Virus record (IMG/VR): IMGVR_UViG_3300047476_001680
Location: 1-64,000 of that record
Reading direction: 5' to 3' (one strand)
Source: a virus
DNA: 64,000 nt
Below the pieces are notes generated by a model. The model searched no databases. It was not told the origin of the DNA and saw only the letters and a program-made list of their open reading frames with translations. Shown here one piece after another: positions 1-64,000 of this stretch. Position numbers and translations under genes: made by a program. How positions within the stretch are numbered: the first letter of the stretch is position 1; each line of letters opens with the position of its first letter.

Positions 1-771
1 GACTGGATACACTATCTGGGAACCAGTAAACTTGAATGGGCTATGTTGTTTACCGACGTACAACGTGCAGTGAGAAAGTACCATAACCCCAGTTTGACTG
101 TGAGTTTTGACTGTGCTAGTCCTTTCCTGGCCACAGCCAACGGACAAGTGTATTGGAAAAATAATCTGGAAGACCGTGCCAAATGGTCCTACAAGATGAA
201 AAAATGCGTGGACGATAAAAAGTATGCCAACGACAGTCGTTACTTCCGTGACGCAGTCGTACAAGATGGCATATTTGAAGAATTTATCCCCAGTCCCATA
301 ATCGATCGTACCAAAATTTCTGATATTTGCTGGTACGGCCCTGGCGACCTAAATAAAATCGGCAAAGAAGGCAAGACTTCCTGGGATAGCTTTGCCTATG
401 CTATCTTGATGGGCCACAATGTCTATGCACACCTTAAAGCAGTACAGGATGGCAACGAACGCTACGATGCTGGTGTAATTCCTGAAATGTTGGTGCGCGA
501 AGTCACAGTGCGTGAAACATTCAGACAGGTCACTGATGATATTTTCAGTGCACCCACACACGCTGATGCAATGCGCCGTATCGATGAATTTGACAAGTGG
601 TATACTTGTATTGTAGGATCAAGTGCCAATGGATTCCTGGGTAAAAGAGCTGTAAATGCCCATACTAAATTGGAGGAACATTTCGAAATGGAGGGCAGCG
701 GGCCAGAAATCGAAGCTGCTGAACGTAAAAAAACCGAAGTTGTATTAAACCCTGATCTTTTTGAGGAGTAA
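1..771 (+). CDS. dpdA: TGT-like DNA 7-deazaguanine transglycosylase (DpdA-like), C-terminal part, truncated by window start
   Basis: Frame is open from base 1 (DWIHYLGTSK...). Shows TGT-like HYLG, SFDCASP and late GHN motifs, and lies near queD-like, folE, queD and queE. Confidence 0.7.
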   Translation, partial: DWIHYLGTSKLEWAMLFTDVQRAVRKYHNPSLTVSFDCASPFLATANGQVYWKNNLEDRAKWSYKMKKCVDDKKYANDSRYFRDAVVQDGIFEEFIPSPIIDRTKISDICWYGPGDLNKIGKEGKTSWDSFAYAILMGHNVYAHLKAVQDGNERYDAGVIPEMLVREVTVRETFRQVTDDIFSAPTHADAMRRIDEFDKWYTCIVGSSANGFLGKRAVNAHTKLEEHFEMEGSGPEIEAAERKKTEVVLNPDLFEE

Positions 772-1670: not shown

Positions 1671-1933
1671 TTAATGTTGTTCAAAACTTTATCAAGTCCA
1701 ACATTCCAGCGATGGAAATGTTGGGCGTGATAATGCGTATCATCAGCTTTACCCTGGTATCCTGGTTAGGCCCAGCAAGTCCCTTTATGTTTGTCTGGGT
1801 CTTTAACACTCTGGATGCTATACTATTAACCTATTGCGCGGTCCTCAAACAAGACCGTGCCTACACTTTACTTAACGGATTCTGGATTCTGGTGGGTACC
1901 ATTGGAATAGCCAGGGCAGGAGGACTATTATGA
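1667..1933 (+). CDS. Small membrane protein (about 3 TM)
   Basis: Three hydrophobic segments; ATGA overlaps at both ends. Confidence 0.6.
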   Translation: MINVVQNFIKSNIPAMEMLGVIMRIISFTLVSWLGPASPFMFVWVFNTLDAILLTYCAVLKQDRAYTLLNGFWILVGTIGIARAGGLL

Positions 1934-2421
1934 GCGAAGCAATGCGTGAAAAAGACAGTGCAGACTACGACCTAGAACGTTTTATTGAAATGTTTGACAC
2001 GGCGATGACTAGCAACGACCCACGAGTGCAGAATGCACTGCGTCAACTTATGATGATGGTAATTTTGACTGACAATAGTCACGAAAACAGAGAGAGAAAA
2101 CTGGGCGGGCGGCAGGGGCCACTGCGCAGAATCACAGAAGAACTCAATATGGTGCAGCGTCGTATGCACGACTTGGCTAATGAACTCAGCACATTGAGAT
2201 TGGCAGCAGTCAACTCTCAGGCCAGGTCAGCACTAGATCCCTACGTGGATAGAGGACACCGGTACGAAAGAGAAGGGATGGAAGTCGCTAAAAGGCCTTA
2301 CCCCAGTACACCAGAAGTGTCTATGGGTCAAGTAGCTGTGAACATTCACGGAGAACACGCAGTGCCCGAGAGTGGTAAAAAACTTGCATCACTTATACAG
2401 AGGATGTCGGGCCACAAGTAA
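1930..2421 (+). CDS. Hypothetical coiled-coil protein
   Basis: 163-aa ORF with AGGAGG SD and overlapping start/stop junctions. Confidence 0.6.
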   Translation: MSEAMREKDSADYDLERFIEMFDTAMTSNDPRVQNALRQLMMMVILTDNSHENRERKLGGRQGPLRRITEELNMVQRRMHDLANELSTLRLAAVNSQARSALDPYVDRGHRYEREGMEVAKRPYPSTPEVSMGQVAVNIHGEHAVPESGKKLASLIQRMSGHK

Positions 2422-3515: not shown

Positions 3516-3707
3516 ATGAAAGTATCTAACAAACTAAGCAAAGTAAGCGACAGTTACACTGTCAATATGTATGACAATGGGTTTATGGTGGAAATAAGCG
3601 GTCGCAACGAAGAAAATGACTGGGCTACAGCCAAAATTCTATGTGGCGATTTGAACGATGTTCTAGAGCTGGTCAAAGAAATCGCCGATATGCCACGTGA
3701 CAATTAA
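3516..3707 (+). CDS. Hypothetical protein
   Basis: Good SD and upstream promoter; 63 aa. Confidence 0.65.
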   Translation: MKVSNKLSKVSDSYTVNMYDNGFMVEISGRNEENDWATAKILCGDLNDVLELVKEIADMPRDN

Positions 3708-3720
3708 TTTTAGGAAAACG

Positions 3721-4401
3721 ATGAAACAACCTATCAGTGAAGAAATTAGAAAGCGTGTGGAAGCTGCTGGTGTGCGTTACCACAGCAACGACAACATTTC
3801 TGAATTTATTAAAGAAGGTGAACTAGAAGCACTGCAACAAGAGGTCGCCTACAAGATGGAAGATGTCCTGCAGAGTTTGGTCATTGATACTACACACGAT
3901 CATAACACGCAGGACACAGCCAATCGCGTGGCCAAGATGTTTATTCAGGAAACGTTCAGTGGTCGCTATCGTCCAGTGCCCAAGGTTACTGCCTTTCCCA
4001 ATATGGGATATAAGAGTCTGTACACCACTGGACCAATTACTATTCGCAGCACTTGTGCACATCACTTTCAGAATATCGTGGGTAAATGCTGGGTGGGTAT
4101 TGTTCCTGAAGACGAAGTCATTGGCCTGAGCAAGTTTAACCGCATAGTTCATCATATCTGCGAGCGTCCACAAATTCAGGAAGAAATGACCACGCAAATT
4201 GCAGAAGCATTAAAGAAGTATGCCAAGACTGAAAACATTGCAGTAGTGGTTAAAGCCGAGCATCACTGTATGACACATCGTGGTGTTCGTGAACACGAAA
4301 GTGATATGACCACTGCAATTATGCTGGGTAGATTCCTGGAAGATCCGGCTCTTAAGAAAGAGTTCTACGACATCTGTATGAGTATGAAGGGACATAACTA
4401 A
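3721..4401 (+). CDS. folE: GTP cyclohydrolase I
   Basis: TANRVAKMF, STCAHH, GLSKFNR, PQIQE and HHCMTHRG motifs. Confidence 0.95.
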   Translation: MKQPISEEIRKRVEAAGVRYHSNDNISEFIKEGELEALQQEVAYKMEDVLQSLVIDTTHDHNTQDTANRVAKMFIQETFSGRYRPVPKVTAFPNMGYKSLYTTGPITIRSTCAHHFQNIVGKCWVGIVPEDEVIGLSKFNRIVHHICERPQIQEEMTTQIAEALKKYAKTENIAVVVKAEHHCMTHRGVREHESDMTTAIMLGRFLEDPALKKEFYDICMSMKGHN

Positions 4402-11399: not shown

Positions 11400-11918
11400 A
11401 TGTTATACCTTAAAGAAACTAACCCCCCAAGAACTTATAAATTTGTAAGTACTAAAGAATACCACGACGCTTTTCCCTGTGCCTACAGGCAATGGCGTGC
11501 AGATAGTCACTGTAACCTAATCCACGGTTATAGTTTTAGTATGAAGTTTTACTTTGGTACTGATAGTCTAGATGTGCGCAACTGGGCTGCTGATTATGGC
11601 GGCCTAAAAGAACTTAAAAAGGTACTAGAAGATCAATTCGATCACACTTTACTAGTGGCACAAGATGATCCAGAACTGGAAACATTTAAAATGCTACAAG
11701 AACGTAAAATGGCTAAGTTAACCATCCTACCCAGATTGGGCTGTGAGGGTTTAGCCGATATGCTTTACAAATATGTCAATGGTGTGTATATTCCTGATAT
11801 GTGGGGGCCGGGCGAAGCAGAACGTCTCTGGTGCTTCCGTGTGGAAGTTCGTGAAACTCAGGCTAATATGGCGTTCCGTGAAGGCCATCGTGAATGGGAC
11901 GAAGATCTATTTGCGTGA
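11400..11918 (+). CDS. queD: 6-carboxy-tetrahydropterin synthase
   Basis: HCNLIHGYS, DYGGLK, FDHTLL, GCEGLA and VEVRET motifs. Confidence 0.85.
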   Translation: MLYLKETNPPRTYKFVSTKEYHDAFPCAYRQWRADSHCNLIHGYSFSMKFYFGTDSLDVRNWAADYGGLKELKKVLEDQFDHTLLVAQDDPELETFKMLQERKMAKLTILPRLGCEGLADMLYKYVNGVYIPDMWGPGEAERLWCFRVEVRETQANMAFREGHREWDEDLFA

Positions 11919-11928: not shown

Positions 11929-12117
11929 ATGAAAACTCGAGAACAAATCATCACTGATATGTGTTACACTTATCGCCACGATTACGGTCTTGACAAGACC
12001 AATGATACTGGTATATTTTCTTCAGGCACTACTGAAGAAGAACGAAGATGGCTCTGGGCAGTGATGGCGCAGATTTTCGACAACAACATAGCACCACATA
12101 TGGAATTCAAAAAATGA
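11929..12117 (+). CDS. Hypothetical protein
   Basis: 62-aa ORF between queD and queE, ATGA overlap. Confidence 0.55.
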   Translation: MKTREQIITDMCYTYRHDYGLDKTNDTGIFSSGTTEEERRWLWAVMAQIFDNNIAPHMEFKK

Positions 12118-12962
12118 GTAAATTAAAAGTAGCAGAACTATTCTACAGTATACAAGGAGAAGGACGCTTTATGGGTGTTCCTTCTATTTTCTTACGTACA
12201 TTCGGTTGTAACTTTACCTGTGCAGGCTTTGGTATGCCACGTGGAGAGCGTAGTACAGCTAATGACCAAGTAGCACAAGAAATCAATAAGTTCGAGAAAT
12301 ATGAAGACCTTCCAGTAGTGTCAACTGGTTGCGATAGCTATGCCAGCTGGGACGCTAGATTTAAGGATCTTAGTCCTGTACTAACAGTGGATGCCATTGC
12401 TGATAGGATGATGGAAATACTTCCTGATAACAAATGGCGAGGTGTTCATTTGGTTATTACTGGCGGCGAGCCTCTACTGGGCTGGCAGCGTAGCTATCCA
12501 GACTTGTTAAATCACGAAAAGCTTAAAAAGTTAAAAGATCTAACATTTGAGACCAATGGTACTCAAGAACTCACTAAGGATTTTAAACTATATCTTTATA
12601 AATGGACACACAAACAAGGTTATCATAATTTAACATTCAGTGTTAGTCCTAAATTAAGTGTCAGTGGAGAAAAGAGAGAAGATGCTATTCGTCCGGACAT
12701 TGTTCGCGAGTACGAAGACCTAGGCCATACATACTTAAAATTTGTTGTGGCAACGGAAGATGATGTCACAGAAGCACTGGAAGTGATTGACATATACAAG
12801 AAAGAAGGGTTTAGTGGACACGTCTATCTGATGCCCGTGGGTGGTGTGGAAAGTGTGTATACTCTAAATAATCGAAGAGTAGCAGAACTAGCAATGAAAC
12901 ACGGACTACGATACTCCGACAGGCTGCAGGTTCCATTGTTTAAAAACGCCTGGGGGACCTAA
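12114..12962 (+). CDS. queE: 7-carboxy-7-deazaguanine synthase (radical SAM)
   Basis: ELFYSIQGEG, FLRTFGCNFTC...CDS, ITGGEP, ETNGT and SVSPK motifs. Confidence 0.9.
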   Translation: MSKLKVAELFYSIQGEGRFMGVPSIFLRTFGCNFTCAGFGMPRGERSTANDQVAQEINKFEKYEDLPVVSTGCDSYASWDARFKDLSPVLTVDAIADRMMEILPDNKWRGVHLVITGGEPLLGWQRSYPDLLNHEKLKKLKDLTFETNGTQELTKDFKLYLYKWTHKQGYHNLTFSVSPKLSVSGEKREDAIRPDIVREYEDLGHTYLKFVVATEDDVTEALEVIDIYKKEGFSGHVYLMPVGGVESVYTLNNRRVAELAMKHGLRYSDRLQVPLFKNAWGT

Positions 12963-19289: not shown

Positions 19290-20399
19290 ATGGCTAAAGA
19301 ATCAGCAGTGACTGACCGCCGCACTGTTACCTCGGAATCAGCACGTCGCAGTATTATTACCTGTTTTAAACGTAAACGTCCGGTTTTTCTCTGGGGGCCT
19401 CCGGGTATTGGTAAATCGGAATTGGTGGCTAGTATTGCAGAGGAACTGGGCGGTGCTATGATTGACCTGCGCCTGGCGCAGATGGAACCCACAGACCTTC
19501 GTGGTATTCCTTACTTTAATAAAGACAATGGTTTGATGGACTGGGCTCCTCCCATTGATCTTCCTGACGAAGAATTTGCCAGCCAACATCCCATTGTGGT
19601 GTTGTTCCTGGATGAGATGAACTCTGCTGCACCTAGTATTCAGGCCGCGGCCTATCAGCTGGTTCTAAATCGTCGTATTGGCAAATATGTACTACCTGAC
19701 AATGTGGTCGTGATTGCTGCGGGCAACCGTGAAAGCGACAAGGGTGTTACTTATCGTATGCCTGCTCCGCTGGCCAACCGTTTTGTGCACTTGGAGATGC
19801 GTGTGGATCACGAATCCTGGCAGAACTGGGCGGTGTTGAACAAGGTGCACAAGGACGTGGTTGGTTATGTGGGTTTTGCCAAACAAGACCTCTATGACTT
19901 TGACCCACGCTCTAGCTCACGTAGTTTTGCCACACCACGTAGCTGGACCTTTGTGAGTGAGTTGCTGGAGGAAAAACTCAGCGACAGCGAAATGACTGAC
20001 CTGGTGGCTGGTGCTGTGGGCGAAGGTGTCGCAGTTAAGTTTATGGCACACCGCAAGGTCGCCGGTCAGATGCCCAAGCCCAGCGAGATTCTCAAGGGCG
20101 AAGTCACAGAGCTCAAGGTCAAGGAAATTAGTGCAATGTATTCTCTAACCATTGCAATGTGCTACGAACTACAAGAAGCTGCACTCAAGCTGGAGAACAA
20201 GCCTGATCAGAACTGGCATTCAATGGCAGATAATTTCTTTAAGTTTATGATGGATAACTTTACCACAGAGCTTACTGTTATGGGTGCGCGAGTTGCGCTT
20301 ACTACCTATAACCTGCCCTTCGTGCCTGGTAAACTCAAGAACTTTGACGAGTTCCACAAACGATTTGGTAAGTACATTGTAGCAGCAAGTCAGAAATAA
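19290..20399 (+). CDS. MoxR-family AAA+ ATPase
   Basis: GPPGIGKS, LFLDE, AAGNR, LANRF and TPRSW motifs. Confidence 0.9.
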   Translation: MAKESAVTDRRTVTSESARRSIITCFKRKRPVFLWGPPGIGKSELVASIAEELGGAMIDLRLAQMEPTDLRGIPYFNKDNGLMDWAPPIDLPDEEFASQHPIVVLFLDEMNSAAPSIQAAAYQLVLNRRIGKYVLPDNVVVIAAGNRESDKGVTYRMPAPLANRFVHLEMRVDHESWQNWAVLNKVHKDVVGYVGFAKQDLYDFDPRSSSRSFATPRSWTFVSELLEEKLSDSEMTDLVAGAVGEGVAVKFMAHRKVAGQMPKPSEILKGEVTELKVKEISAMYSLTIAMCYELQEAALKLENKPDQNWHSMADNFFKFMMDNFTTELTVMGARVALTTYNLPFVPGKLKNFDEFHKRFGKYIVAASQK

Positions 20400-20423: not shown

Positions 20424-20430
20424 CACCTAG

Positions 20431-20761: not shown

Positions 20762-20792
20762 ACATATATAAGTTAACACAAAGGACAAACAT

Positions 20793-52624: not shown

Positions 52625-55600
52625 TTAACTGGTTAAACCCTTGATGAATCTAATATATGGGGTATTACTATTAAATATTCCCGTATTAGACGCTGGTGCG
52701 TTGGCCAAAGTCTCAACTGTGATATTTTCCAAACTAGCTTCAGTAATTACCACCACATTGGATTCAGTTAAAATAGGACTATCAGCGTATCCTTGTTCGT
52801 TGAATACTCCAGTACGGACAGCATTATTAACTGAGGTAAACGTATAGGTAATCGGAGGACCAAAATTAGCCCCTTCAAATCGTTTCCCAAACTCAACACC
52901 AGCTACATTTACTCTCGTAAAAGCAATATTGTCTCTGTCAGCCTTGTCTACACCTTGAACTACATCAACATTGGCACCCATATCATAGACAACTGTGCCG
53001 GCACTGTGTGAGGCCATACCAGTACCAAGAGTGCCGCGACGAATGTTACTTAGTGTATGTGTAGCAGTGTCCACATTCCAGAAAGTAATGCGTTCACCAT
53101 TTATGTAAATTACCCCGGGTATTCTGCTTGTGGGTGTGTTAACTGGCAATGACAACACTGCGCTGTTTGCAACCACAATGGTGTTGGAGTTTGCAGTAAT
53201 ATCTGAAGCCAATGTGGTTCTGTCTAGCACATAGTCTGCTCTGTAATATCTATAAATGTCCTCACCGTCCTGAATCTCAGTGAATCTAGGAAGGTTTTTA
53301 TAGGACTGTATAGACTTATGAATTCTATAGCTAAACACATTGTTAGTTGTCTCCCAGTAGGGACGAGACAGTCTTGGATATATGATCGCTGGTCTTAAGT
53401 TACCACCAGTGACTGTGATCACAGGGTTATCCAGATATCGTAGACCTGGCTGACTGATGGATATTCCCACGATTGATCCCAGATTGTCCAAGATAATACC
53501 GTCTGTGGTTATTGTAGCAGTCACCAAAGCATTTCCAGAAGTTACAGTGACATTTACCGAAGAAATACCATCCTTGGTATAACCAAGACCGCCGTCTTCA
53601 ATGAATACCCCATCAAGAGTCATACCAATGGAATTATACCAGTTAGTGTACTCAGACGACAACGGGTCAACGTTCGCAGTTGTGATAGTCATTACCACGG
53701 AATCAAACATCCTACCGGGAACTAGTTCTTCTGGTGAATGGCTGTTGTAAGGATCTACGTAGTCCCCACCATCTATTTCTATAACACTGGCGTTACTTGA
53801 AAAACTAGTATCAAATGCGGTGTTGGCCAGTGGTGGCCCACCATCAATGATTCTATCCAGCAAGTCTTCATCAAATACAAAGACGCCATCTTCATTTCTA
53901 GCCTGAGCATCAAAGTTATCTTCGTCAAACTCATTAGAGCTGACATCGAATCCACCGGACTCTGAAAAATATGGACTATCTAGCAACACTCTAGGATAAT
54001 CTATTCCTGACTGCAATAATGCTAGATTTTTTCCAGGTCTTCCAATGTCAGGATTGTAGTAGGCAGTGATTCTGTCGTTAGCGTTGTCAAAATCCCCGCC
54101 GCTTAATTCAACAAGATTTTCTGAGCTAAACAGACTGGTACTCGTAAATCCAGTGCTCACACGGTAGGCAACATTATTAAATGTCACAATGTCATTCTCA
54201 CTGAATACAGTATTTGCTGACCAGGTCAACACATTGCTAGAGTAAGTTATTCTATCGTAGACTAAAGTAGTTTTAATCTTTCTCACTGTTTTATTATCTA
54301 AAACAGGATAAAGTCTAGCAGCGTTACCACCAAAACTTAAAGTGATATTTGGGGTAGTATAATAACCGCTACCAGGATATGTAACTATCACGCTGGTCAC
54401 ACTGCCATTGGCAACCAGTGCTCGAGCTCTTGCGTCGTCATTGGTCATACTACCTGAGAAGGTAATAGTGGGCGGGTCAGCATAACCAGAACCACCATCA
54501 ACCACCCTCACTTCACTCACATAGTAATCGTGATTGTTTTTCCAGTAAGAGTTAACGCTGGTATTCAGAGCATCAAGGTCCTGTGGATATACTGAACCAC
54601 CAGTGGCGAAGGACGTGGGGCTTCGGAATAATCCCAATTCACCATCATAGTAGGGCACAACATCAAAGTCTGACACATTTAAATTATTGTTTTCTGTTTT
54701 TTCGTAGTTAAAAACATATTCTCTAATAGTTGACCTATAGGGCTTAACTTCTTCAACATATTGTTTATAGTTGTCTTGATTATTTCTACGATACAGTGGA
54801 AGTTCTTCAAGGTTAGCAACTTTATGAATAATATTAATAAAGCTAGTTTTAAATGCCCAGTCCACCAGCTTCTGTTCATTGAATATGTAGTGAACAAATA
54901 CAAAGAATAACTCAGTGAATTTCTGGCTTAGTTCATTGATAAAGATGTTATTTCTTAAAGCTTCTACAATAGTTCTCATTTCCACAGTGGGAGTTCTGTC
55001 GAATGTCGAACTTTCAAAACTTCCAGTATCAAAACTATACCCGTATTTTTCGTAATCGTAAAGATTATCCTTGAATTGGATAGTTCCTGACTGTATACCA
55101 ATAATACGTAAATCTTGATCGGTCACTAGTAAAAGAATCCATTTATTTTGACCGTTATTTTTAATTTTTATTATGTCACCAGTGGTCAATCTACTGGTTA
55201 TATCGTTTAAGTTGATGGTAGCTTCAATGGTAAAGTTCGGAACTGTCAGTGCACTATAACCAACTGCGTACCAGTCAGTGTACTCCCAATAATCTGCAAC
55301 ATCATAACTCTGAATGCGCAGTAGTCTCCAACCATCAGTTCTTAGATTTTCGTACAGAGCCCAGTGATTGCCCACTGTGGAATCGTTAACTACGAGGACA
55401 CGATAGCCCAAGGGTGTTGTCAGAGGATTTACAAATCCAAATTCTAGATTGTTTTCACAGCGCAGATCGTACTCACCAAGAGTAATGTCAGGAAGTGGTT
55501 CGCCACCACTGATGGACTCCAGATCAAAACCGCGAGTAACCACGGTCTGCTTGAGTACTTCATTGACGTAGTCAACCATATTAGCAATAGCTTGCTCACG

Positions 55601-58600
55601 CTTGACGAACATAGTTTGTCTTGGTCTGTTGCTGATACCGTATTTTAACTGAACTGGCAGAGCAGCATCGGGAACAATATTATCGTAGACATCAACCCCA
55701 CTAAGACTATCAAGTAATTTATTATAGATTACTTGTGGTATGTTGGCAGGTTTGTCGCCCGTGGGTGACAACAATGAAAACTCACGATGAATAATATCTT
55801 GATTAATTTTGCTAGCATAATCAATATGAAGAATAATTTTGTCTGAAATTACATCTTCAAATATATTAAATAACGCCACTGCGTCATTACGCAGAGCGGC
55901 CAGGTACTTGATACCACTTCCCTTGGGGTTTCTAATATAATCAGTGACAGTCAAGCAAGATAATTTTCTTGAAGCAATCTGTGGCACGGAAATTTTATTT
56001 TTGACCCAGAAATAGTATTTTACCACTGCTAGGTTGGTCACTGTGTCAATGTAGTTAACAGATACATAGGTATCAGTGTACTTGACCTCACCATCACCGT
56101 TTAATGTAGCATACTGACTGGGAGGATAATCGCTTTCTACCCACTCATAGACGTCTATGCTACTACCTTCAAATTGTGCTCCCCAGTTATCTGTTCTGTA
56201 TTTTATGGATCCTTGTTCATAATCTACATATCTTACAGTGCCTAGGTCCCACCATAGCTGCCCCACTTGTTCTCGGCCCCACTGGAAATTCTGACTCAGT
56301 GTAATGTCAGATCTCACAGAGTTATTATAGACTGCTGGATCATAATCAGTTTTATAGGTGAGTTCTTGTTCGGCTTGGCCAAGTATTTTGCCCTTGATTG
56401 GGTCTATGTAGTCTAGGTAGTACACAACTTGGTTAGTATCTTTGTTATAAAGATAAGCTTTTACTATGCTGTTGATATCAACTCTGCCCTGTTTGCTTTC
56501 AACTTGATCCCAACCCTTGCTGCCAGTGTTGTTTTTAAAATAGAACACGCTACCGTGGTATTCTTGGGGATTTACTGTAGAGGTAAACGAGCTACTGTCT
56601 TGTGTGGCCCCAACGAATAGACTATCACCACGAACTGCCACAGCACTTCCAAATTTAATGTCAGTACTAAAGTCTACATTTATATCAGTGGGTATTAATT
56701 GCTGTGTTAGACTAAATTTACCTGGATATTCTATACTCTGTCTGCTGTCAGACAAATATTGCATTAACCATACTGCACCACTGTCAAAATTATCATTGAA
56801 CGTAGTGCTACCATCGTCAAAAGTAGTAGCTTGATCTAACTTATCCAAGGTAGAATCTGTGAAGTATTTTGTAGCTGGAGTAGTTTCAGCCAGCGCAGGA
56901 TATACATCAAAAGTAGTTTCTTTATAGGTCTTGGCCTCGGGACTACCCACTACTAACCCATCACTTGTGTCAGTGATAGCTATAGTATATCCGAATCTAT
57001 CGTAAGATGTTGCTGTGGGATTTTCTATAATTTCCACGTCCTTGAATATGTCCAGACCTAGATAGGTTATAGGACTGGTGCCACTATGTGTGCTTGGCAG
57101 GACTCTCAGTCTATCAGCAACGATGACTGCGTCACTGTTAATTTTTAGGTATCCGTTGTAATTAGACGCAGTGATACCCGGAATGCGTGTATTGTTTATG
57201 TCGTTGACAATATTGTTTAGAGTTGTACCTGTGAACTCCACCACAACGTCATTGATTCTAATAGTGTCCCCAATGACAGCGGTTGGGTTAACCACAGTGC
57301 CAACGATGGTACCATAGACTCTAGATTGGTTTAGTAGTCTATAAACTCTTCCCACTTCAAACTTATTGTCACTGCTAAAATAAGGCACACCAACATAGAC
57401 GCTGCAATTATAAGGGCAAATATCCACACTATAACCATATTGGTCATCTGTGGCAACATTGTCAGTTCCTTTCTTGGTACCTATTAATTCAAAGTTGTTT
57501 GATTCAACTTCAATGGTACTACCATTTGCTGGCTCAGTGATAAATGACACTGTATTACCTGACACTGTATAGTCAACATTAATTGTTTGTAGTTGTCCAG
57601 TTACATAAACCTTGTTTTTGTTGTCCAAGCTATGCAGGGAAACCACGGTGAAGCTGACATTACTGGTGGTTTTATAAAAACGTTCCACACTTCTATCTAG
57701 TATACTAATACTCCCTGAGCGTGATATACCATCAACATCATCAGCAGGAGCACCAGCCACAAGTTGTCGGCCATCAGTACTGGTAGCCACAGACCAACCA
57801 AAATTACTATTGGCGTTTCCAGACACATTAGCATAATATTCATAACCTGATTTCTGTGTTACGGTTAGATTACCATAGTTGCCAGCAGTATTAATATTAA
57901 ATGTGAATGACAATACGTTTCCAGCTAGAGTATAGTCACGATAAGGAGTATAAATGAACTCCCTATCTTGAACTACCAGGAAGTCTTGACCGGCTGGTGT
58001 AAACGGTAGAGTGAAACTATTACTGCTAACAGCAACTTGCGCTGAAGTATAGCTTGTTGACTCGTCGTCTACGTCCCTGAATTGATAGATATAGACTTTA
58101 TCTTCTCCAGGTGCACCTACATACAGCCAATTATCGTCATCACTAATAGTGATACTATGACCAAACATAGATGTTGTGTTTACTGGAGAAGCAATTATAC
58201 TACGCTGTGCCAGTGCACCACGTTCGTCCTGATCAAATACAACCACTGCCCCACGATTATTTTTAGTGTACGGAGCACTGGCAATAACGATCGCATCACC
58301 ATTGGCCACGTCGTGACCCAGCCCCACTAGATCCTTGGCATTGCTGGTTATTGAACCAGTTTCTATATATTGATCATATTTGTTTCTGGCAAAGTTAACC
58401 ACGTTGCCGGTTACACTATTTGTTCCAGGACGGCCAGCGGTCAAGTACTTACCAGTACTAGATAAACTCAAAGAACTACCTAGATAACCCTGGTTACTAA
58501 GCACACTTTGTTTTAAGTTGTTTTCCAGTACCCAGGGCTCAGATTTTTCATAGATAGACCATTCATCAGCTTGGTTACCATTCTCTATGTAAATCTTGGT

Positions 58601-61600
58601 ACTAGGAGTCCATTGCAATTTTCTACTAGGAACTTCGCTTAGATATCTAAACTTGATGCTTGAAAGTTTTAGTATTTTAACAAAATCTACCTCTGCACCG
58701 ATAAATCCAGTGAGGTCAAAATCACCAGTATATTCAATTACAAAATTTGTATCATCAGTTACAGATTTAATTTCATACAATCCAGAAAAATTATCTATTC
58801 CATTTAAAATAATGATATTTTCTTTGGCAAAATTATGCTTGTCAGAAGTGGTCACTGTAAGTTGCCCGCCAAGACTATTAGTAATGTTGACAGTAAACAC
58901 CTCTGTGTTGGTAACTTCGTAAATATCCCAAACTTGTTTATAATTTTTTGCACACCACAATGTTTTGCCAACATCCAGAATGTCCAATTGCTCTTGGGTC
59001 AGCAATGTACTACCAAGATCAAAAACCTTTACATCTATCTCATCTATCTTGGCGAAACCCACAGATTGAATATCTTCGTCGTAGTCGCTAGATTCGTTTC
59101 GATCCAGGAATATAGGGAATTCAAGAGTATGTGTTGATGTTTTATAAACACTGTTTTTGTTTGTGTACGTTTCTGAATACAGAGCACTGCCATTAGCACC
59201 AATTACCAAACTCGCTGGGTTATTTTTTAAATACTGTTCCTGTAGCTGTATTTCAATATATCTATTAGTATCCAGACTTCCATATTCGCCTACTTTGAAA
59301 GCCCAGTCTTCGTGAAGTGTTATATTGCTGGTGTTGTCTTCAAAACTCAGCTGTTTTAATGCGTCAATGGCTCGCTTGGTACCTTTTTCTCGTATAAAGC
59401 CTTGATAGAACTTTACCTGTGATGTATCATTGATACCCAGATTATCCAGATAACTTCTATTTCTATATCCTATTAGGCCCAGGCTGTACTGATCAAAAAT
59501 ATTGTCATCAGTGACAGTGTCTATATCATAGTAATTTTCAGCGAGCCCTGCCATTGTACCAAAACTGTTTAATAAACCAGTCTTGATTCTTGACTTGTCC
59601 ACTGGCAACCATTCTGTAAACTTAAATTCATCGTTGGCCACAATGTTATCTTTGGCAGCATAATAAAAGTTTTTATACTCTACGAGATCTCCACGACGAT
59701 AGTCGGTACCCGAAGTCCAGCCGGGCACAGTCTCTCGGTTATATACAAAACCTGGAATTTCAAAAGAACCAGTCCAATCCTGAGTTTTACTGCCCACTAG
59801 TTTAACTCTGAACTGGCGCTGGCCCGTGGCTGGGTCGTAGATAACATCGTTAAATTGTGATTTATTATTGAACACCATCGCGTGTTCATATTGCACAGTG
59901 TTTAACTTTGCCAGAGCAATCATTGACTGGTTGTTATCTAAAATAATATTACAGTTATTACCCACGCGAGAAATACTGTAAGCATCATAATTCAGTGTCT
60001 TGAAATTCTGATCGACGACCCTACTGTTCCAGGGATCATTAGAAATTTTGTCGACCACTGTGGCTGAATTTTCGAACTCAAGTGTATTAGCCACTGGGCT
60101 TAGAACTAAAATGCTACCCACGGACCAGCCCTGTTGAATCCAAAATAAAAATTCTTCTATACTCAGTGCCCAGTCACCCACTTTACCCAGATCTTCTCGG
60201 AACTTGGTAAATTTAAATCCTTGACTCACTAGTCCCCGTTCGTATCCAGCTATAAAATCACAGACATCCTGAGCTGTCTTAAATTCTGTGCCATAGGGCA
60301 CATCTTGAATTGTATTCTGAAATATAGTTGGATAGGTAACTGTTTCCTTTAATACTCTTATTGGGTAACTATTGGCTGATGGTGCAGGAACTGCCACTGT
60401 AAAATATGGCTGGGAAACATCATAACCCCTCAGACTCCATCCGCTGGTAGTTTTTTCCACTATTATTGCACTATATGTTGGTGTAAGTATTGGTTGAGAT
60501 TTATTTACAAAAAGCTTGTAATCATCATCAGGAATAACAACACCTTGATTTAAACTGTTGGGACTGTATTGTTCGGCTATGACTTTGATTCGACTCTTGT
60601 CACTGAAGCCTGCCATACGATAACTGAGTTGTATGGAGTAATTTTCTATAAATGATTTCAGCGGAGTTTTATCCACTACTCCCAGGCCAGTCTGTCTTTC
60701 TGCCAGCCAGTTTATGTAGCCAGCACCTCGAGTTATTGTGCCAGCGGAATCGATATACCCGTTGATCTTGATATCATTTTGTGTTATACAACGATTGGTA
60801 CCTTCTACCACATACTGATTTAATACTTCGTCGTACCTATATATGTCAGTGGCCACACCCAGACTGAAATATTCTGCTGGGTTGATGACTGCAGATAAAA
60901 TCTGGCAGGCGAAAGGATAATTTACACTCTTGCGCCAGGCTGTTTCTATTCTTCCCCACTCACCAGAAACCCAGGGTTTGTCAAAGTCTTGTTCATTGTA
61001 GCTATTGGTCAACAAACCCAATGGTGGTAATAAATTCCCTTGGTTGTCCACGGGAATGATATTGGATAATCCTGGACGGACAAAACGTGCATCATATTGC
61101 ACTGTGATGCCATCACGTATAGCACCTGCCTCGAGATCTTCCCAGAGTAGTGTGTTATCACTAGTGTAGGGTGCAGGCCCGTATTGGTCTTGCCACCATA
61201 ATGGTTCTTCACTAAATCCCAGCATTTCCCAGGGACGAAGATTGGGCGCTTCAGTGTCATAAAAATACTGGAAGCACGCTCTCCAACTTCCAGGCAGTGC
61301 CTGGTTATCCAAAACATCACCAGCCCCACCATAGTTATAGGTGTAGGGATTGTCTACGTCATAGGTGTCATTGCTAGTAAAGTTTAATCCTAGTGCCCCG
61401 GCCCAGTTCAAGAAATTTTTACTTAATGCAAATTCGATTTGCTCCAGTGTATAGTCTCTATTAAGTTCTTTTCTAAATCTACCAGGCTTGGTTGCAAACA
61501 TATCTACACTTGTTGAAGTGTAACTTACTTTGATATTATTGTAGATTCGTCTCTCTAACTCTAGAACTAAGTCGTCTCTAAAATCATTGAATGCTGGCGT

Positions 61601-64000
61601 CACTGACCCGTCGTGACCACGTATCATTTTTACAGTACCGCTTAGGTAGCTGGTGTCATCAAAAATCTCAGGCGTGAACTTGGGCCACAGGCCCAATTTA
61701 GTTGGTGTTTCTGGAATATAACAGCCGTCGGTGTTGGTATATTCAAAAATAGTAATTCTGTCGCCCACTGTGAGTTCAAAATTATCCAGGAACCTAAATG
61801 CTGGTGATGATTCGAGAAACTCGTAATCTCGTCCTAGTAGTATCTGTGTTTTATTGTAATAAATTATAACTGCTTTATTAGATAATACTGTGGGATTGAA
61901 AATTTCCGATAGCAAATAACTACGTCTTGCAGTATCTAGCACGTAATAGGTTATAATATTTTTGTCACTGCCATAGGGAACCATATCGCTGGCAAACCAG
62001 GGAAAGCTATTGTCCTTGACTGAGTTAATCTGTGATAATATTTTGTCCACTGCCACAATAGGGCTTTCTAGATCTAGATATGGCTCTGTGATGGCCATAC
62101 TTAAAAACTTGTGTCTAAATCTAGAATATTCTTTTTCTGCGTATCTCACACTGTCCACGAAGTTATACTTTTCACTGCTCAAGAACAGTGCAGGTAAACT
62201 CACTGGATTGGCGTGTTGTAGGATGGTGCCCACACCAGTGTTAAAATCAATGTCTCTACTATTGTTAACTCCCGGGAACTCACCAGTTAAATCCACCGTA
62301 CTCTGAGCTAGATTGGTTGCGTGACCACGCATCTGACCCAGGGTGATTTCATTGACAATAAAATTCTGAGCATTGTAGTTTAAGTTTTCTGGAATGATGT
62401 AAAATCCCAGCTGGCTCTGTGACTTACTATAGAAATTAATATCAATTCTATCCCCCTGCTTGATGAGTTCCGAGTCAATAGTAATGTCGTGTTTGTTTCC
62501 AATTAAGTCAGTCACAGTGTAATAATCTGCTGTGATCTCTTTGAAGTTTACCAATACACGTAGATTTTTTCTAGTTATGCTGTCTTCCATTAATACATCC
62601 ACACGGAAGACATTGTCTGTACCATCGTAGATATAGGGAATACTCTGGAATTGTGAAGTGGGCTCGTTTACTTTTCTCCAGGGTATTAGTTTTCTAAGTT
62701 CACCAGTGCTAAACTCTTGTAGAGTACCCAGTCCAATTTTTTGTGTATAAGTAACTCCATCAATTACATAGTTAAATGTTTCATTTTCAAAGGTATTTTC
62801 AAATACGATGTCGCCAGATGTAATTAGATTTTTATAAGACAGTGGGAACCCCAGCACACTGTCGTTGGCGCCTGCACCAATTTTATAGCTAAAAATTGTG
62901 GAGCCATTAAATGCAGTAGCAGAATTGTTTATGGGGTAATAGTCAAGATCCCCGAAACTGATGCCGTTGGCATCATAAACGTCAAACCTAGGTGCCTGAT
63001 TCACATTGAGTTTTTGTTGCCCCTCATTCCAGTCCACACCATCCCACCAGAAATACTTTCCATTGTTACTAGACTGTGTGGCCCGGACACTGCTAAAAGG
63101 CACCACTACATCAGTCTCTTCAATTAAATTAATGACAGGCGCAGGATTAAATGTATTGATGTCAGTGTCAATGAATGCTACTCGGTAGACTTTTTTTCTA
63201 GCTTCGGGATCAAGTTCACGTGTAAAAATAACACGCATACCATCTTCAAATTTAGTACCAGCGTTATCGTAGGCCACAGGCTGGCCTTGTATAGCCACAA
63301 AAGGGCGTTCGTGAATTTGATCCACGATGTCCACGGGCTGAAGCCCAATGTAGCCTGAATTAAACAATTTAATATCTGGGATAAACTCGATGATGGGGCG
63401 ACGTGCCTTGATGGCCTGGGTTAATTCCACATTGGTATTATTGTATCTGGCAGTGTCAAATAAAACTTGTTGGTGGAACCAACGGTTGTTTTTGCTCCAG
63501 GGATTAAAGTCTGTGCTGCTTCTGTTAATTGTAATATAATCAGGTACAGTAATATCCACTGGATCACTATCGTAGACTATCAAACTATCCACAGCAGTCA
63601 GTCTGATACCTTTGCCCACCCCGTCCACATAGAACTCTCGTTCAGAATAGGTGCTGGACTGTGCGCTGGCATCAAATCTGACTTTTAATCCATTGGTGAA
63701 TTTTACACCGTTGGGACTGGTGTAATACGTTCTTGACAAAATATCATTTTCAACGTTGATGATATTGTTTTCAACATCGATGATTCTAATATAACCCCAA
63801 GCCCCCTCACGTGATCCGTTTTGATAATATAATCTGTCAAGATTGGCAGTGATGATGGGCACACTTTCTAGTGTTTGTGTAGTAGTCTTGTACCAACTAG
63901 TTGATCTTAAAGTTTGTCCACCGGTGACAGTTATCTTGTTTAGACTAGCGATGTCAGCATAGTAACTTAACTTAAATCTATATTGCCCGTCACCAATGTC
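52625..64000 (-). CDS. Giant virion structural protein (baseplate wedge-like, at least 3790 aa), 5' end beyond window
   Basis: Frame open to base 64000; FYQGFIREKGT and VKPYRSTIREY motifs, FG/VGAP propeller repeats, GGSGY repeats. Confidence 0.75.
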   Translation of the reverse strand, partial: DIGDGQYRFKLSYYADIASLNKITVTGGQTLRSTSWYKTTTQTLESVPIITANLDRLYYQNGSREGAWGYIRIIDVENNIINVENDILSRTYYTSPNGVKFTNGLKVRFDASAQSSTYSEREFYVDGVGKGIRLTAVDSLIVYDSDPVDITVPDYITINRSSTDFNPWSKNNRWFHQQVLFDTARYNNTNVELTQAIKARRPIIEFIPDIKLFNSGYIGLQPVDIVDQIHERPFVAIQGQPVAYDNAGTKFEDGMRVIFTRELDPEARKKVYRVAFIDTDINTFNPAPVINLIEETDVVVPFSSVRATQSSNNGKYFWWDGVDWNEGQQKLNVNQAPRFDVYDANGISFGDLDYYPINNSATAFNGSTIFSYKIGAGANDSVLGFPLSYKNLITSGDIVFENTFENETFNYVIDGVTYTQKIGLGTLQEFSTGELRKLIPWRKVNEPTSQFQSIPYIYDGTDNVFRVDVLMEDSITRKNLRVLVNFKEITADYYTVTDLIGNKHDITIDSELIKQGDRIDINFYSKSQSQLGFYIIPENLNYNAQNFIVNEITLGQMRGHATNLAQSTVDLTGEFPGVNNSRDIDFNTGVGTILQHANPVSLPALFLSSEKYNFVDSVRYAEKEYSRFRHKFLSMAITEPYLDLESPIVAVDKILSQINSVKDNSFPWFASDMVPYGSDKNIITYYVLDTARRSYLLSEIFNPTVLSNKAVIIYYNKTQILLGRDYEFLESSPAFRFLDNFELTVGDRITIFEYTNTDGCYIPETPTKLGLWPKFTPEIFDDTSYLSGTVKMIRGHDGSVTPAFNDFRDDLVLELERRIYNNIKVSYTSTSVDMFATKPGRFRKELNRDYTLEQIEFALSKNFLNWAGALGLNFTSNDTYDVDNPYTYNYGGAGDVLDNQALPGSWRACFQYFYDTEAPNLRPWEMLGFSEEPLWWQDQYGPAPYTSDNTLLWEDLEAGAIRDGITVQYDARFVRPGLSNIIPVDNQGNLLPPLGLLTNSYNEQDFDKPWVSGEWGRIETAWRKSVNYPFACQILSAVINPAEYFSLGVATDIYRYDEVLNQYVVEGTNRCITQNDIKINGYIDSAGTITRGAGYINWLAERQTGLGVVDKTPLKSFIENYSIQLSYRMAGFSDKSRIKVIAEQYSPNSLNQGVVIPDDDYKLFVNKSQPILTPTYSAIIVEKTTSGWSLRGYDVSQPYFTVAVPAPSANSYPIRVLKETVTYPTIFQNTIQDVPYGTEFKTAQDVCDFIAGYERGLVSQGFKFTKFREDLGKVGDWALSIEEFLFWIQQGWSVGSILVLSPVANTLEFENSATVVDKISNDPWNSRVVDQNFKTLNYDAYSISRVGNNCNIILDNNQSMIALAKLNTVQYEHAMVFNNKSQFNDVIYDPATGQRQFRVKLVGSKTQDWTGSFEIPGFVYNRETVPGWTSGTDYRRGDLVEYKNFYYAAKDNIVANDEFKFTEWLPVDKSRIKTGLLNSFGTMAGLAENYYDIDTVTDDNIFDQYSLGLIGYRNRSYLDNLGINDTSQVKFYQGFIREKGTKRAIDALKQLSFEDNTSNITLHEDWAFKVGEYGSLDTNRYIEIQLQEQYLKNNPASLVIGANGSALYSETYTNKNSVYKTSTHTLEFPIFLDRNESSDYDEDIQSVGFAKIDEIDVKVFDLGSTLLTQEQLDILDVGKTLWCAKNYKQVWDIYEVTNTEVFTVNITNSLGGQLTVTTSDKHNFAKENIIILNGIDNFSGLYEIKSVTDDTNFVIEYTGDFDLTGFIGAEVDFVKILKLSSIKFRYLSEVPSRKLQWTPSTKIYIENGNQADEWSIYEKSEPWVLENNLKQSVLSNQGYLGSSLSLSSTGKYLTAGRPGTNSVTGNVVNFARNKYDQYIETGSITSNAKDLVGLGHDVANGDAIVIASAPYTKNNRGAVVVFDQDERGALAQRSIIASPVNTTSMFGHSITISDDDNWLYVGAPGEDKVYIYQFRDVDDESTSYTSAQVAVSSNSFTLPFTPAGQDFLVVQDREFIYTPYRDYTLAGNVLSFTFNINTAGNYGNLTVTQKSGYEYYANVSGNANSNFGWSVATSTDGRQLVAGAPADDVDGISRSGSISILDRSVERFYKTTSNVSFTVVSLHSLDNKNKVYVTGQLQTINVDYTVSGNTVSFITEPANGSTIEVESNNFELIGTKKGTDNVATDDQYGYSVDICPYNCSVYVGVPYFSSDNKFEVGRVYRLLNQSRVYGTIVGTVVNPTAVIGDTIRINDVVVEFTGTTLNNIVNDINNTRIPGITASNYNGYLKINSDAVIVADRLRVLPSTHSGTSPITYLGLDIFKDVEIIENPTATSYDRFGYTIAITDTSDGLVVGSPEAKTYKETTFDVYPALAETTPATKYFTDSTLDKLDQATTFDDGSTTFNDNFDSGAVWLMQYLSDSRQSIEYPGKFSLTQQLIPTDINVDFSTDIKFGSAVAVRGDSLFVGATQDSSSFTSTVNPQEYHGSVFYFKNNTGSKGWDQVESKQGRVDINSIVKAYLYNKDTNQVVYYLDYIDPIKGKILGQAEQELTYKTDYDPAVYNNSVRSDITLSQNFQWGREQVGQLWWDLGTVRYVDYEQGSIKYRTDNWGAQFEGSSIDVYEWVESDYPPSQYATLNGDGEVKYTDTYVSVNYIDTVTNLAVVKYYFWVKNKISVPQIASRKLSCLTVTDYIRNPKGSGIKYLAALRNDAVALFNIFEDVISDKIILHIDYASKINQDIIHREFSLLSPTGDKPANIPQVIYNKLLDSLSGVDVYDNIVPDAALPVQLKYGISNRPRQTMFVKREQAIANMVDYVNEVLKQTVVTRGFDLESISGGEPLPDITLGEYDLRCENNLEFGFVNPLTTPLGYRVLVVNDSTVGNHWALYENLRTDGWRLLRIQSYDVADYWEYTDWYAVGYSALTVPNFTIEATINLNDITSRLTTGDIIKIKNNGQNKWILLLVTDQDLRIIGIQSGTIQFKDNLYDYEKYGYSFDTGSFESSTFDRTPTVEMRTIVEALRNNIFINELSQKFTELFFVFVHYIFNEQKLVDWAFKTSFINIIHKVANLEELPLYRRNNQDNYKQYVEEVKPYRSTIREYVFNYEKTENNNLNVSDFDVVPYYDGELGLFRSPTSFATGGSVYPQDLDALNTSVNSYWKNNHDYYVSEVRVVDGGSGYADPPTITFSGSMTNDDARARALVANGSVTSVIVTYPGSGYYTTPNITLSFGGNAARLYPVLDNKTVRKIKTTLVYDRITYSSNVLTWSANTVFSENDIVTFNNVAYRVSTGFTSTSLFSSENLVELSGGDFDNANDRITAYYNPDIGRPGKNLALLQSGIDYPRVLLDSPYFSESGGFDVSSNEFDEDNFDAQARNEDGVFVFDEDLLDRIIDGGPPLANTAFDTSFSSNASVIEIDGGDYVDPYNSHSPEELVPGRMFDSVVMTITTANVDPLSSEYTNWYNSIGMTLDGVFIEDGGLGYTKDGISSVNVTVTSGNALVTATITTDGIILDNLGSIVGISISQPGLRYLDNPVITVTGGNLRPAIIYPRLSRPYWETTNNVFSYRIHKSIQSYKNLPRFTEIQDGEDIYRYYRADYVLDRTTLASDITANSNTIVVANSAVLSLPVNTPTSRIPGVIYINGERITFWNVDTATHTLSNIRRGTLGTGMASHSAGTVVYDMGANVDVVQGVDKADRDNIAFTRVNVAGVEFGKRFEGANFGPPITYTFTSVNNAVRTGVFNEQGYADSPILTESNVVVITEASLENITVETLANAPASNTGIFNSNTPYIRFIKGLTS

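What the first reader, a model, noticed from the sequence alone, without database searches (positions are those of the whole stretch)
1..64000. CATG appears to be absent from the window
Seen: in stretches I read base by base (1-2.4, 8.6-10.7, 30.7-31.8 and 53-54.7 kb, plus spot checks elsewhere) no ATG was preceded by C. His before a G-starting codon is repeatedly CAC. About 200 sites would be expected from composition (rough estimate), and GATC, CTAG, GGCC, TGCA and GTAC are common. The AT-rich inserts also lack it. Inference: strict avoidance of a host NlaIII/FatI-type nuclease not blocked by the deazaguanine modification, or the phage encodes its own CATG nuclease against host DNA.
Basis: partly seen in the sequence, partly recalled or inferred. 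Interest (0 to 1): 0.7.

Follow-up and report, generated by a model that had tools for sequence, protein, structure and literature searches.

The report
Lake jumbo phage purged of CATG
This fragment of an uncultured freshwater giant phage has removed every copy of the four-letter DNA word CATG by silent codon changes, most likely to escape a host DNA-cutting enzyme, which is a very clean example of a well-known phage trick.

Summary
CATG occurs 0 times in the 64-kb window and 0 times in the whole 88,750-bp virus record. Expected counts for the record are 249 (Markov) and 208 ± 12 (synonymous-codon shuffles, minimum 175). No other tetramer comes close; the next lowest O/E is 0.63.

The purge is made by silent codon choice:
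- His before G is CAC 126 of 126 times.
- NNY before ATG ends in T 268 of 268 times.
- NCA never precedes TGN (0 of 143).

The record is about 25% of a roughly 340-kb T4-like jumbo phage found in freshwater metagenomes of many studies.

Most relatives keep CATG. A second lineage lost it independently (G001: 0 against 247 expected in 93.9 kb; a single clade is rejected). Other relatives have purged other palindromes instead (ACGT, CTAG, AGCT, TGCA, GTAC).

This mosaic is the signature of host Type II restriction-site avoidance (Rusinov 2018, PMC6286503). The host and the enzyme are unknown. No CATG nuclease or methylase was found in the fragment.

This scan has noted CATG-free phages before on other DNA. 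The finding is a new member of a known kind and of modest interest.

The parts
1..64000 (.). CATG-free DNA. This is the whole window, and the property continues to the end of the 88,750-bp record.
   Evidence: 0 CATG against 181-306 expected in the window. 0 against 249 expected in the record. 0 against 207.6 ± 12 in synonymous-codon shuffles.
3697..4401 (+). GTP cyclohydrolase I (FolE).
   Evidence: Pfam PF01227, E 1.5e-45.
11400..11918 (+). QueD-like 6-pyruvoyl-tetrahydropterin synthase (context).
   Evidence: Pfam PF01242, E 7.3e-15. 83% identical homologue in the second CATG-free genome G001.
12048..12962 (+). QueE-like radical SAM enzyme (context).
   Evidence: PHROG 2076 'QueE-like radical SAM domain', E 9.9e-57. 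Pfam Radical_SAM, E 7.5e-06.
19290..20399 (+). MoxR/CobS-like AAA ATPase, used as a marker gene to collect and place relatives.
   Evidence: Pfam AAA families. 80 IMG/VR loci and 80 metagenome loci were retrieved with it. Tree.
52625..64000 (-). Part of a 4,155-codon ORF (52625-65092 in the record) that contains no CATG. It shows that even a 12.5-kb gene has been fully purged.
   Evidence: ORF list. Zero count.

Best explanation
The phage has eliminated the recognition site of a CATG-specific orthodox Type II restriction enzyme carried by its unknown freshwater host or hosts.

Proposed mechanism: each unmethylated CATG on entering phage DNA is a potential double-strand cut. Every site lost therefore raises the chance of a productive infection.

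CATG can always be removed without changing a protein:
- CAT|G becomes CAC|G.
- NNC|ATG becomes NNT|ATG.
- NCA|TGN becomes NCB|TGN (B = C, G or T).

Selection could therefore drive the count to zero and keep it there.

Shown here: the absence, its specificity, the silent route, its independent recurrence, and the family-wide mosaic of other purged palindromes. Inferred: that the agent is a host restriction enzyme. The enzyme and the host are not identified.
For: 1. Absolute and specific loss: 0 against 249 expected in 88,750 bp. The next lowest tetramer has O/E 0.63.

2. Silent route:
- His before G is CAC 126, CAT 0.
- NNY before ATG is T 268, C 0, whereas 41% end in C before ATH.
- NCN before TGN is A 0 of 143, whereas about 30% are A elsewhere.
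- Codon-preserving shuffles give 207.6 ± 12, minimum 175.
- At the five portal positions where 49-63 of 78 CATG-bearing relatives read CATG and the amino acids agree, this genome, L003 and L070 all read TATG.

3. The trait is lineage-specific:
- Of 80 IMG/VR loci found with the portal, only L003 (0/14; 94% identical) and L070 (0/11) lack CATG. L020 has 20/53. The other 77 have O/E 0.58-1.38.
- Of 80 loci found with the AAA ATPase, only L092 (0/35) and L116 (0/58) lack it.
- The closest relative found, L187 (88% identity), has 63/72.
- The 97%-complete relative G006 has 840/1060.

4. Convergence:
- The whole 93,878-bp record G001 (holding L116; its portal is 98.7% identical to L070's) has 0 against 247 expected.
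- A single clade of the two CATG-free lineages is rejected: AU p = 0.0012 on the portal and 0.0003 on the AAA ATPase.

5. Relatives have purged other Type II-style palindromes:
- ACGT 0/26, 0/21, 0/30
- CTAG 0/50
- AGCT 2/49, 6/70
- TGCA 13/82
- GTAC 8/42
- AATT 11/63
Partial CATG states also exist (G005 25/77; L195 13/60).

6. No cognate nuclease or methylase was found in any CATG-free record.

7. Passages of Rusinov et al. 2018 (PMC6286503; read) say the following:
- Site avoidance concerns orthodox Type II systems.
- It is stronger in non-temperate phages.
- Complete or near-complete elimination occurs in about a tenth of viral genomes.

8. The sequence is not an artefact of one assembly:
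- Runs from 15 studies hold part of it, and 7 runs hold at least half of its sampled words.
- Contigs of the same runs carry CATG in other sequence (loose ends).
Against: - The host is unknown, and no CATG restriction-modification system was linked to this phage.
- Only about 25% of the genome is available (CheckV estimate), so a phage-borne enzyme could lie in the missing part.
- Not every difference from relatives is silent. At 49 of the 59 portal alignment positions where at least one relative has CATG, this genome has other amino acids, and 5 more positions are gapped. One example is Arg-Ala where 39 relatives have His-Ala. Most of these are variable positions, so this does not contradict the reading, but it was not tested against a control word.
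- The population test for ongoing selection was uninformative. Only 40 of 731 differences were shown; 0 of them make CATG, against about 0.7 expected.
- The clade tests named their groups after the trees had been seen.
- L092 may belong with this lineage (AU p = 0.17), so only two independent purges are secure.
Confidence: 0.8

Rival explanations
1. Self-inflicted avoidance. The phage encodes, in the roughly 75% of the genome not recovered, its own CATG-cutting nuclease that it uses against host DNA. It protects itself by having no sites rather than by methylation.
For: - Earlier, unchecked notes of this scan describe giant viruses that carry a CATG-type nuclease and methylase and have lost most of their own CATG sites.
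- The fragment is only 25% of the genome.
- No DNA methylase was found in it, as this model would require.
Against: - No NlaIII/IceA-like (PF05315) or HNH (PF01844) match was found in this record or in the other CATG-free records: G001 to G004 for PF05315 and G001, G002 and G004 for PF01844.
- 60 of the 90 predicted ORFs were scanned against Pfam, and none matched a restriction enzyme family.
- The one PD-(D/E)xK protein (record 80285-80845) belongs to a resolvase-annotated family present in PA5oct, Phosso and many Listeria and Bacillus phages. It is absent from G001.
- This model needs a different private nuclease in each relative that purged ACGT, CTAG, AGCT, TGCA or GTAC. That is less economical than differing host enzymes.
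- The only ORF shared by both CATG-free genomes and missing from G006 (1930-2421, 163 aa) has no recognisable family or fold.
Confidence: 0.07
2. Avoidance of a methylation mark rather than of a cut. A host methyltransferase marks CATG, and a methylation-dependent (Type IIM/IV) nuclease in the next host cuts marked DNA. Losing the word prevents the phage from being marked.
For: It would give the same silent, word-specific purge. From my own knowledge, the known CATG methylases make N6-methyladenine, and methyl-dependent nucleases exist.
Against: In passages of Rusinov 2018, only weak avoidance was seen for sites of modification-dependent enzymes, whereas elimination was typical of orthodox Type II sites. 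Nothing here points to a methyl-dependent enzyme.
Confidence: 0.05
3. The cause is not defence. It is either a mutational bias or repair process that destroys CATG, or a phage function (packaging, replication or transcription signal) that makes stray CATG harmful.
For: TCGA is also about half of its codon-shuffle expectation, and CANTG words are over-represented. So word-level forces other than one enzyme act on this genome.
Against: - A mutational process does not give exactly zero in 88.7 kb with all three reading phases cleared only through synonymous alternatives.
- Close relatives with the same replication and packaging genes keep normal CATG counts.
- The same word was lost in a second lineage, while sister lineages lost other palindromes.
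Confidence: 0.03
4. Technical artefact of sequencing, assembly or base modification that miscalls CATG.
For: The phage may carry modified guanines (FolE, QueD and QueE are present).
Against: - Miscalls would change proteins. Instead the alternatives are synonymous in all three phases, and ORFs up to 4,155 codons are intact.
- The sequence recurs in assemblies from many studies.
- The same runs hold CATG in other contigs.
- Relatives from the same kinds of data sets have normal counts.
Confidence: 0.01

Closest known systems
Restriction-site (short palindrome) avoidance in non-temperate dsDNA phages, as surveyed by Rusinov et al. 2018 (PMC6286503; passages read)
   Same: Elimination of one short palindromic word typical of orthodox Type II enzymes. 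The elimination is complete (compositional bias below 0.1). The phage is apparently virulent and carries no matching methylase.
   Different: The host and enzyme are unknown here, so the defining host link is missing. The case is extreme in scale: 0 of about 250 sites in 88.7 kb of a genome of about 340 kb. It comes with a documented independent repeat in a sister lineage.
CATG-specific Type II enzymes NlaIII, FatI and CviAII with their N6-adenine methylases (names and specificities recalled from my own knowledge, not from a call)
   Same: Their recognition site is exactly the missing word. All 16 flanking contexts NCATGN are absent, which fits a 4-base specificity rather than a 6-base one such as NspI, SphI or NcoI.
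   Different: No such enzyme was found in the phage fragment or tied to a host. PF05315 (ICEA/NlaIII-like) has no match in the six records searched with it.
Staphylococcus phage K and kin lacking GATC (recalled from my own knowledge; not checked in a call)
   Same: A large virulent myovirus with a complete absence of one 4-base restriction site.
   Different: A different word, host and phage family. For phage K the host enzyme is known.
Marine jumbo phage purged of CATG, an earlier follow-up in this scan (e1-5973802; an unchecked AI note)
   Same: Same word, same silent route, and sister lineages that removed other words.
   Different: A different genome and habitat (ocean against lakes). I did not compare the sequences.

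Membership tests
Restriction-site avoidance (phage anti-restriction by site elimination) | The word is a short palindrome of the kind recognised by orthodox Type II enzymes | tested here: met
   CATG is its own reverse complement. It is the only one of the 16 palindromic tetramers with O/E below 0.8 in the window. That CATG is the NlaIII/FatI/CviAII site is recalled, not from a call.
Restriction-site avoidance (phage anti-restriction by site elimination) | Under-representation far beyond composition-aware expectation (eliminated: O/E below 0.1) | tested here: met
   0 observed against 249 (Markov), 306 per 64 kb (dinucleotide shuffles) and 207.6 ± 12 (synonymous-codon shuffles).
Restriction-site avoidance (phage anti-restriction by site elimination) | The depletion is specific to the word, not a general compositional effect | tested here: met
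   The next lowest tetramer has O/E 0.63 and is a non-palindrome also low in relatives. Control palindromes lie within about 20% of codon-shuffle expectation, except TCGA (133 against 252).
Restriction-site avoidance (phage anti-restriction by site elimination) | Sites are removed without altering proteins (synonymous route) | tested here: met
   Codon-context counts. TATG stands at the five conserved portal positions. At 49 of 59 positions the amino acids differ as well (variable positions; no control word was run).
Restriction-site avoidance (phage anti-restriction by site elimination) | The host encodes a restriction-modification system of that specificity | not testable with these tools
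   The host is unknown.
Restriction-site avoidance (phage anti-restriction by site elimination) | The pattern tracks lineage or host rather than phage family (relatives differ) | tested here: met
   Most relatives keep CATG. A second lineage lost it independently. Others lost ACGT, CTAG, AGCT, TGCA, GTAC or AATT.
Virus-encoded CATG restriction-modification (as R.CviAII/M.CviAII of chloroviruses; recalled) | The genome encodes a CATG-type nuclease (NlaIII/IceA-like or other) | tested here: inconclusive
   PF05315 and PF01844 have no match in the 88.7-kb record. 60 of 90 ORFs were scanned against Pfam with no restriction enzyme family. Only about 25% of the genome is present.
Virus-encoded CATG restriction-modification (as R.CviAII/M.CviAII of chloroviruses; recalled) | The genome encodes a DNA methyltransferase | tested here: inconclusive
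   PF01555, PF02086 and PF00145 have no match in the record. Among 12 long relatives, 3 have an N6_N4 match at E <= 0.001 (2 over the cut-off), 0 have a D12 match and 0 have a C5 match.
Phage 7-deazaguanine DNA modification (Dpd-type) | Biosynthetic genes FolE, QueD and QueE | tested here: met
   PF01227 at 1.5e-45 and PF01242 at 7.3e-15. PHROG 2076 QueE-like at 9.9e-57.
Phage 7-deazaguanine DNA modification (Dpd-type) | DpdA (TGT-family DNA transglycosylase) that inserts the base into DNA | tested here: inconclusive
   PF01702 has no match at E <= 1 in the record, and none at E <= 0.01 in 5 related records, 3 of them at least 90% complete. Earlier notes on related genomes report a divergent DpdA-like protein, which I did not test. 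The fragment is incomplete.

The most novel reading that the evidence does not exclude
The missing three quarters of this roughly 340-kb genome encode a CATG-cutting nuclease with no partner methylase. The phage would use it to shred host DNA, and the total absence of the word from its own DNA would be its only self-protection. That is a 'self/non-self by site absence' weapon not described for phages in the papers I searched.
Probability: 0.06. Interest if true: 0.7.

Novelty: new member of a known kind. Interest (0 to 1): 0.3.

Why it matters
On its own this is a textbook phenomenon seen in an unusually clean form. It has three practical uses.

1. The missing word predicts a property of the unknown host: a CATG-specific restriction system and CATG methylation. 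That could be matched against lake methylomes to assign hosts to an abundant, uncultured family of freshwater jumbo phages.

2. The family-wide mosaic could serve as a natural system for studying how fast and how repeatably restriction shapes large phage genomes. Different lineages have purged CATG, ACGT, CTAG, AGCT, TGCA or GTAC, partial states exist, and at least two independent CATG purges occurred.

3. DNA free of CATG would survive NlaIII or FatI digestion, which offers a simple way to enrich these genomes from viral-fraction DNA.

The finding also shows that a putative deazaguanine pathway, if it modifies the DNA at all, has not removed the need for site avoidance.

Tried and rejected
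1. A megablast of window 1-20000 against GenBank phages found nothing. The record has no close cultured relative. The best portal matches are Phosso at 53% and PA5oct-like phages at 50%.

2. Population test. I laid contigs of four runs on window 20001-40000. Only 40 of 731 differences were printed. None creates CATG, against about 0.7 expected, so the test is uninformative.

IMG/VR and JGI scans returned no further piece of this lineage beyond L003. The tools state that records very near the window may be left out.

4. Host clues. There are no tRNA genes. Papers on freshwater jumbo phages (PMC12619734, outline and abstract; PMC13573597, one passage) concern other lineages. The listing counted no occurrence of CATG in the main text of the Lake Biwa metaepigenome paper, which I did not open. 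The marine methylome paper mentions CATG only for Phycodnaviridae (PMC9516812, one passage).

5. Candidate phage nucleases:
- The PDDEXK_15 protein (record 80285-80845) is a widespread resolvase-annotated family. It had no PDB sequence match.
- ORF 1930-2421 is the only ORF shared with the other CATG-free genome but not with G006. It gave no family, no PDB match, and only low-score atlas hits.

6. L092 as a third independent purge: not established (AU p = 0.17). L211 is the same sequence as L116 (100% over 20,247 bases), so it is not independent.

7. Literature searches for a described CATG-free phage listed none by title or abstract. I did not open those papers.

8. Tools not used: structure prediction, complex prediction, Rfam and covariance models, the genome-contig scan, the search for homologous proteins, the search of protein representatives and the listing of cluster members.

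Full report
**Observation**

CATG does not occur in the 64,000-base window on either strand, while 100 dinucleotide-preserving shuffles give 306 ± 16. Base composition predicts 232 and a second-order Markov estimate predicts 181.

The window is the first 64 kb of an 88,750-bp IMG/VR virus record. The whole record also has 0 CATG against 249 expected (z = -15.8). CAT is followed by A, C, G and T 435, 358, 0 and 534 times. The only 5-mers absent from the record are the eight that contain CATG.

The effect is specific. The next lowest tetramer, TAAG (O/E 0.63), is non-palindromic and is also low in most relatives.

I called 90 ORFs covering 96.6% of the record and shuffled synonymous codons within each gene 300 times. 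These shuffles give 207.6 ± 12.0 CATG (minimum 175) against 0 observed. The 2,959 non-coding bases hold 0 against about 9.7 expected.

**How the word is avoided**

All three reading phases are cleared through synonymous alternatives:
- His followed by a G-starting codon is CAC 126 times and CAT 0 times. CAT is the commoner His codon before A, C and T.
- Two-fold NNY codons before ATG end in T 268 times and in C 0 times. Before ATH codons 41% end in C.
- NCN codons before TGN end in A 0 times of 143, against about 30% elsewhere.

In a codon alignment of the portal gene, five positions meet two conditions: 49-63 of 78 CATG-bearing relatives read CATG, and this genome has the same amino acids. 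At those positions this genome, L003 and L070 all read TATG.

Not all differences are silent. At 49 of the 59 alignment positions where some relative has CATG, this genome has other amino acids, and 5 more are gapped. Most of these are positions where few relatives have the word, and I ran no control word.

Intact ORFs up to 4,155 codons and the synonymous pattern rule out a base-calling artefact. So does the recurrence of the sequence in assemblies from many studies, together with CATG in other contigs of the same runs.

**What the genome is**

The record is linear and CheckV-estimated at 25% complete. It encodes a T4-type portal, prohead protease and baseplate protein. The portal is 50-53% identical to those of jumbo myoviruses Phosso, PA5oct and Rak2-like phages.

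Relatives in IMG/VR reach 316-343 kb at 91-100% completeness, two of them with terminal repeats. The record is syntenic with positions 192-292 kb of the 338.5-kb relative G006.

Runs from 15 studies hold part of a 10-kb stretch, and 7 runs hold at least half of its words. The runs that hold at least a fifth of the words are labelled freshwater, lake-water or aquatic metagenomes, plain 'metagenome', or carry no label.

Other genes include:
- FolE, a QueD-like PTPS and a QueE-like radical SAM
- a phosphoribosyltransferase
- ThyA, DHFR and dCMP deaminase
- a CobS/CobT-like pair
- sugar-modifying enzymes and several radical SAM proteins

There are no tRNA genes.

**Relatives**

Of 80 IMG/VR loci retrieved with the portal, only two lack CATG: L003 (0/14 expected; 94% identical portal) and L070 (0/11). 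L020 has 20/53. The other 77 have O/E 0.58-1.38.

Of 80 loci retrieved with the AAA ATPase, only L092 (0/35) and L116 (0/58) lack it.

Of 80 metagenome loci:
- L211 lacks CATG, but it is identical to L116 over 20,247 bases.
- L195 has 13/60.
- The closest relative found, L187 (88% identity), has 63/72.

The full record behind L116 (G001; 93,878 bp; 27% complete) has 0 CATG against 247 expected. Its portal is 98.7% identical to that of L070.

On the portal tree this genome and L003 form a pair (support 100). That pair sits beside CATG-bearing L016 inside a 25-row clade. G001 and L070 sit with CATG-bearing L065 and L074.

Forcing the four CATG-free rows into one clade costs 97 log-likelihood units (AU p = 0.0012). 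On the AAA tree, forcing this genome together with L116 gives p = 0.0003, while this genome with L092 is not rejected (p = 0.17). The groups were named after the trees had been seen. At least two independent purges are therefore supported.

**The family-wide pattern**

Other lineages have purged other palindromic tetramers:
- ACGT: 0/26, 0/20, 0/21, 0/15, 0/30
- CTAG: 0/50
- AGCT: 6/70, 2/49
- TGCA: 18/83, 13/82
- GTAC: 8/42, 8/48
- AATT: 11/63
- GCGC: 0/10
- TCGA: 0/9

The near-complete G006 shows only mild effects (CATG 0.79, AGCT 0.61). DNA methylases are sporadic in 12 long relatives: 3 have an N6_N4 match (2 over the cut-off), none has a D12 match and none has a C5 match.

**Explanation**

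A silent, word-specific, complete purge of a Type II-style palindrome is what selection by host restriction enzymes predicts. So are its independent repeat and a mosaic of different purged palindromes among close kin.

Passages of Rusinov et al. 2018 (PMC6286503) state three relevant points:
- Avoidance concerns orthodox Type II systems.
- Elimination is more frequent in non-temperate phages.
- Complete or almost complete elimination occurs in about a tenth of viral genomes.

I therefore read the finding as avoidance of a host CATG-specific restriction enzyme (confidence about 0.8). The enzyme class (NlaIII, FatI or CviAII-like) is named from my own knowledge. Neither the host nor the enzyme was identified.

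**Rivals**

*A phage-borne CATG nuclease.* This has no support:
- PF05315 (IceA/NlaIII-like) has no match in this record or in G001 to G005.
- PF01844 (HNH) and the three methylase families have no match in this record, G001, G002, G004 or G005.
- No restriction enzyme family matched among the 60 ORFs scanned.
- The single PD-(D/E)xK protein belongs to a resolvase-annotated family shared with PA5oct, Phosso and many Gram-positive phages, and it is absent from G001.

With 75% of the genome missing, this rival cannot be excluded.

*Avoidance of a methyl mark read by a modification-dependent nuclease.* This would look the same, but Rusinov's survey found only weak avoidance for such enzymes.

*Mutational bias or an internal signal function.* This does not fit the exact zero, the normal counts in close kin, or the differing words among sisters.

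**The deazaguanine clause**

FolE, QueD and QueE are present here, and homologues of all three are in G001. No QueC-like family appeared in my family scans, and I ran no search aimed at QueC. PF01702 finds no DpdA in this fragment or in five relatives, three of them near-complete. Earlier notes of this scan on related genomes report a divergent DpdA-like protein and a QueC-less pathway, which I did not test.

Whether the DNA is modified is therefore open. If it is, the modification has not removed the need for site avoidance.

**Novelty**

The phenomenon is known. This scan has also already recorded CATG-free phages and viruses on other DNA, including a marine jumbo phage with the same pattern (unchecked AI notes).

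My searches listed no paper whose title or abstract describes a CATG-free phage or this freshwater lineage. I opened only four papers, and supplements were closed.

I class the finding as a new member of a known kind. Its merit is its cleanness and the comparative series around it.

Noticed in passing
whole record (window 1-64000 and beyond): TCGA is about half of its synonymous-shuffle expectation (133 against 252 ± 11; Markov O/E 0.73), while ACGT is not depleted (239 against 253). This may be a second, partial site avoidance rather than simple CpG loss.
   Followed up: partly
whole record; G001 (L163-L167): The four CANTG pentamers are over-represented. Pooled O/E is 1.53 here and 1.44 in the other CATG-free genome. 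In 156 CATG-bearing related loci it is 1.19 (5-95% range 0.96-1.41, maximum 1.49). The short CATG-free loci L092 and L003 are ordinary (about 1.18). No mechanism was found.
   Followed up: partly
L024-L026, L029, L059, L098, L200, L227 (ACGT); L103 (CTAG); L018/L120, L096/L097 (AGCT, TGCA); L064, L126, L158 (GTAC); L128/L222 (AATT): Related jumbo phages have each purged different palindromic tetramers, some completely (ACGT 0/26; CTAG 0/50). The result is a mosaic across the family.
   Followed up: partly
G005 (L168-L169) and L195: Two relatives show intermediate CATG states: 25/77 in the 31.7-kb record G005 and 13/60 in L195. They may be lineages in the course of losing or regaining the word.
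   Followed up: no
window 52625-64000 (-), continuing to 65092 of the record: A single ORF of 4,155 codons lies next to tail and baseplate-like genes. Homologues are 35-43% identical in G001 and G006.
   Followed up: no
window 32046-44399 (-): The carbamoyltransferase and the run of radical SAM genes have homologues in G006 (27-77% identity) but none in G001. This glycan or tailoring block is therefore variable within the family.
   Followed up: no
window 1930-2421 (+): This 163-aa ORF is the only one of 90 shared with the other CATG-free genome G001 (41% over 120 aa) and not found in the near-complete CATG-bearing G006. It has no Pfam, PHROG or PDB match, and its atlas model has low confidence.
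   Followed up: yes
G006, G007, G008 (near-complete relatives): PF01702 (TGT/DpdA) finds nothing in three 91-99% complete relatives, although this family carries FolE, QueD and QueE genes. Either the transglycosylase is too divergent for the Pfam model or the pathway serves another purpose.
   Followed up: partly
many related loci (e.g. L056, L074, L013, L039): The non-palindromic GGTT is under-represented in many relatives (e.g. 31/77, 52/91). It is only mildly low in this genome (295/349).
   Followed up: no
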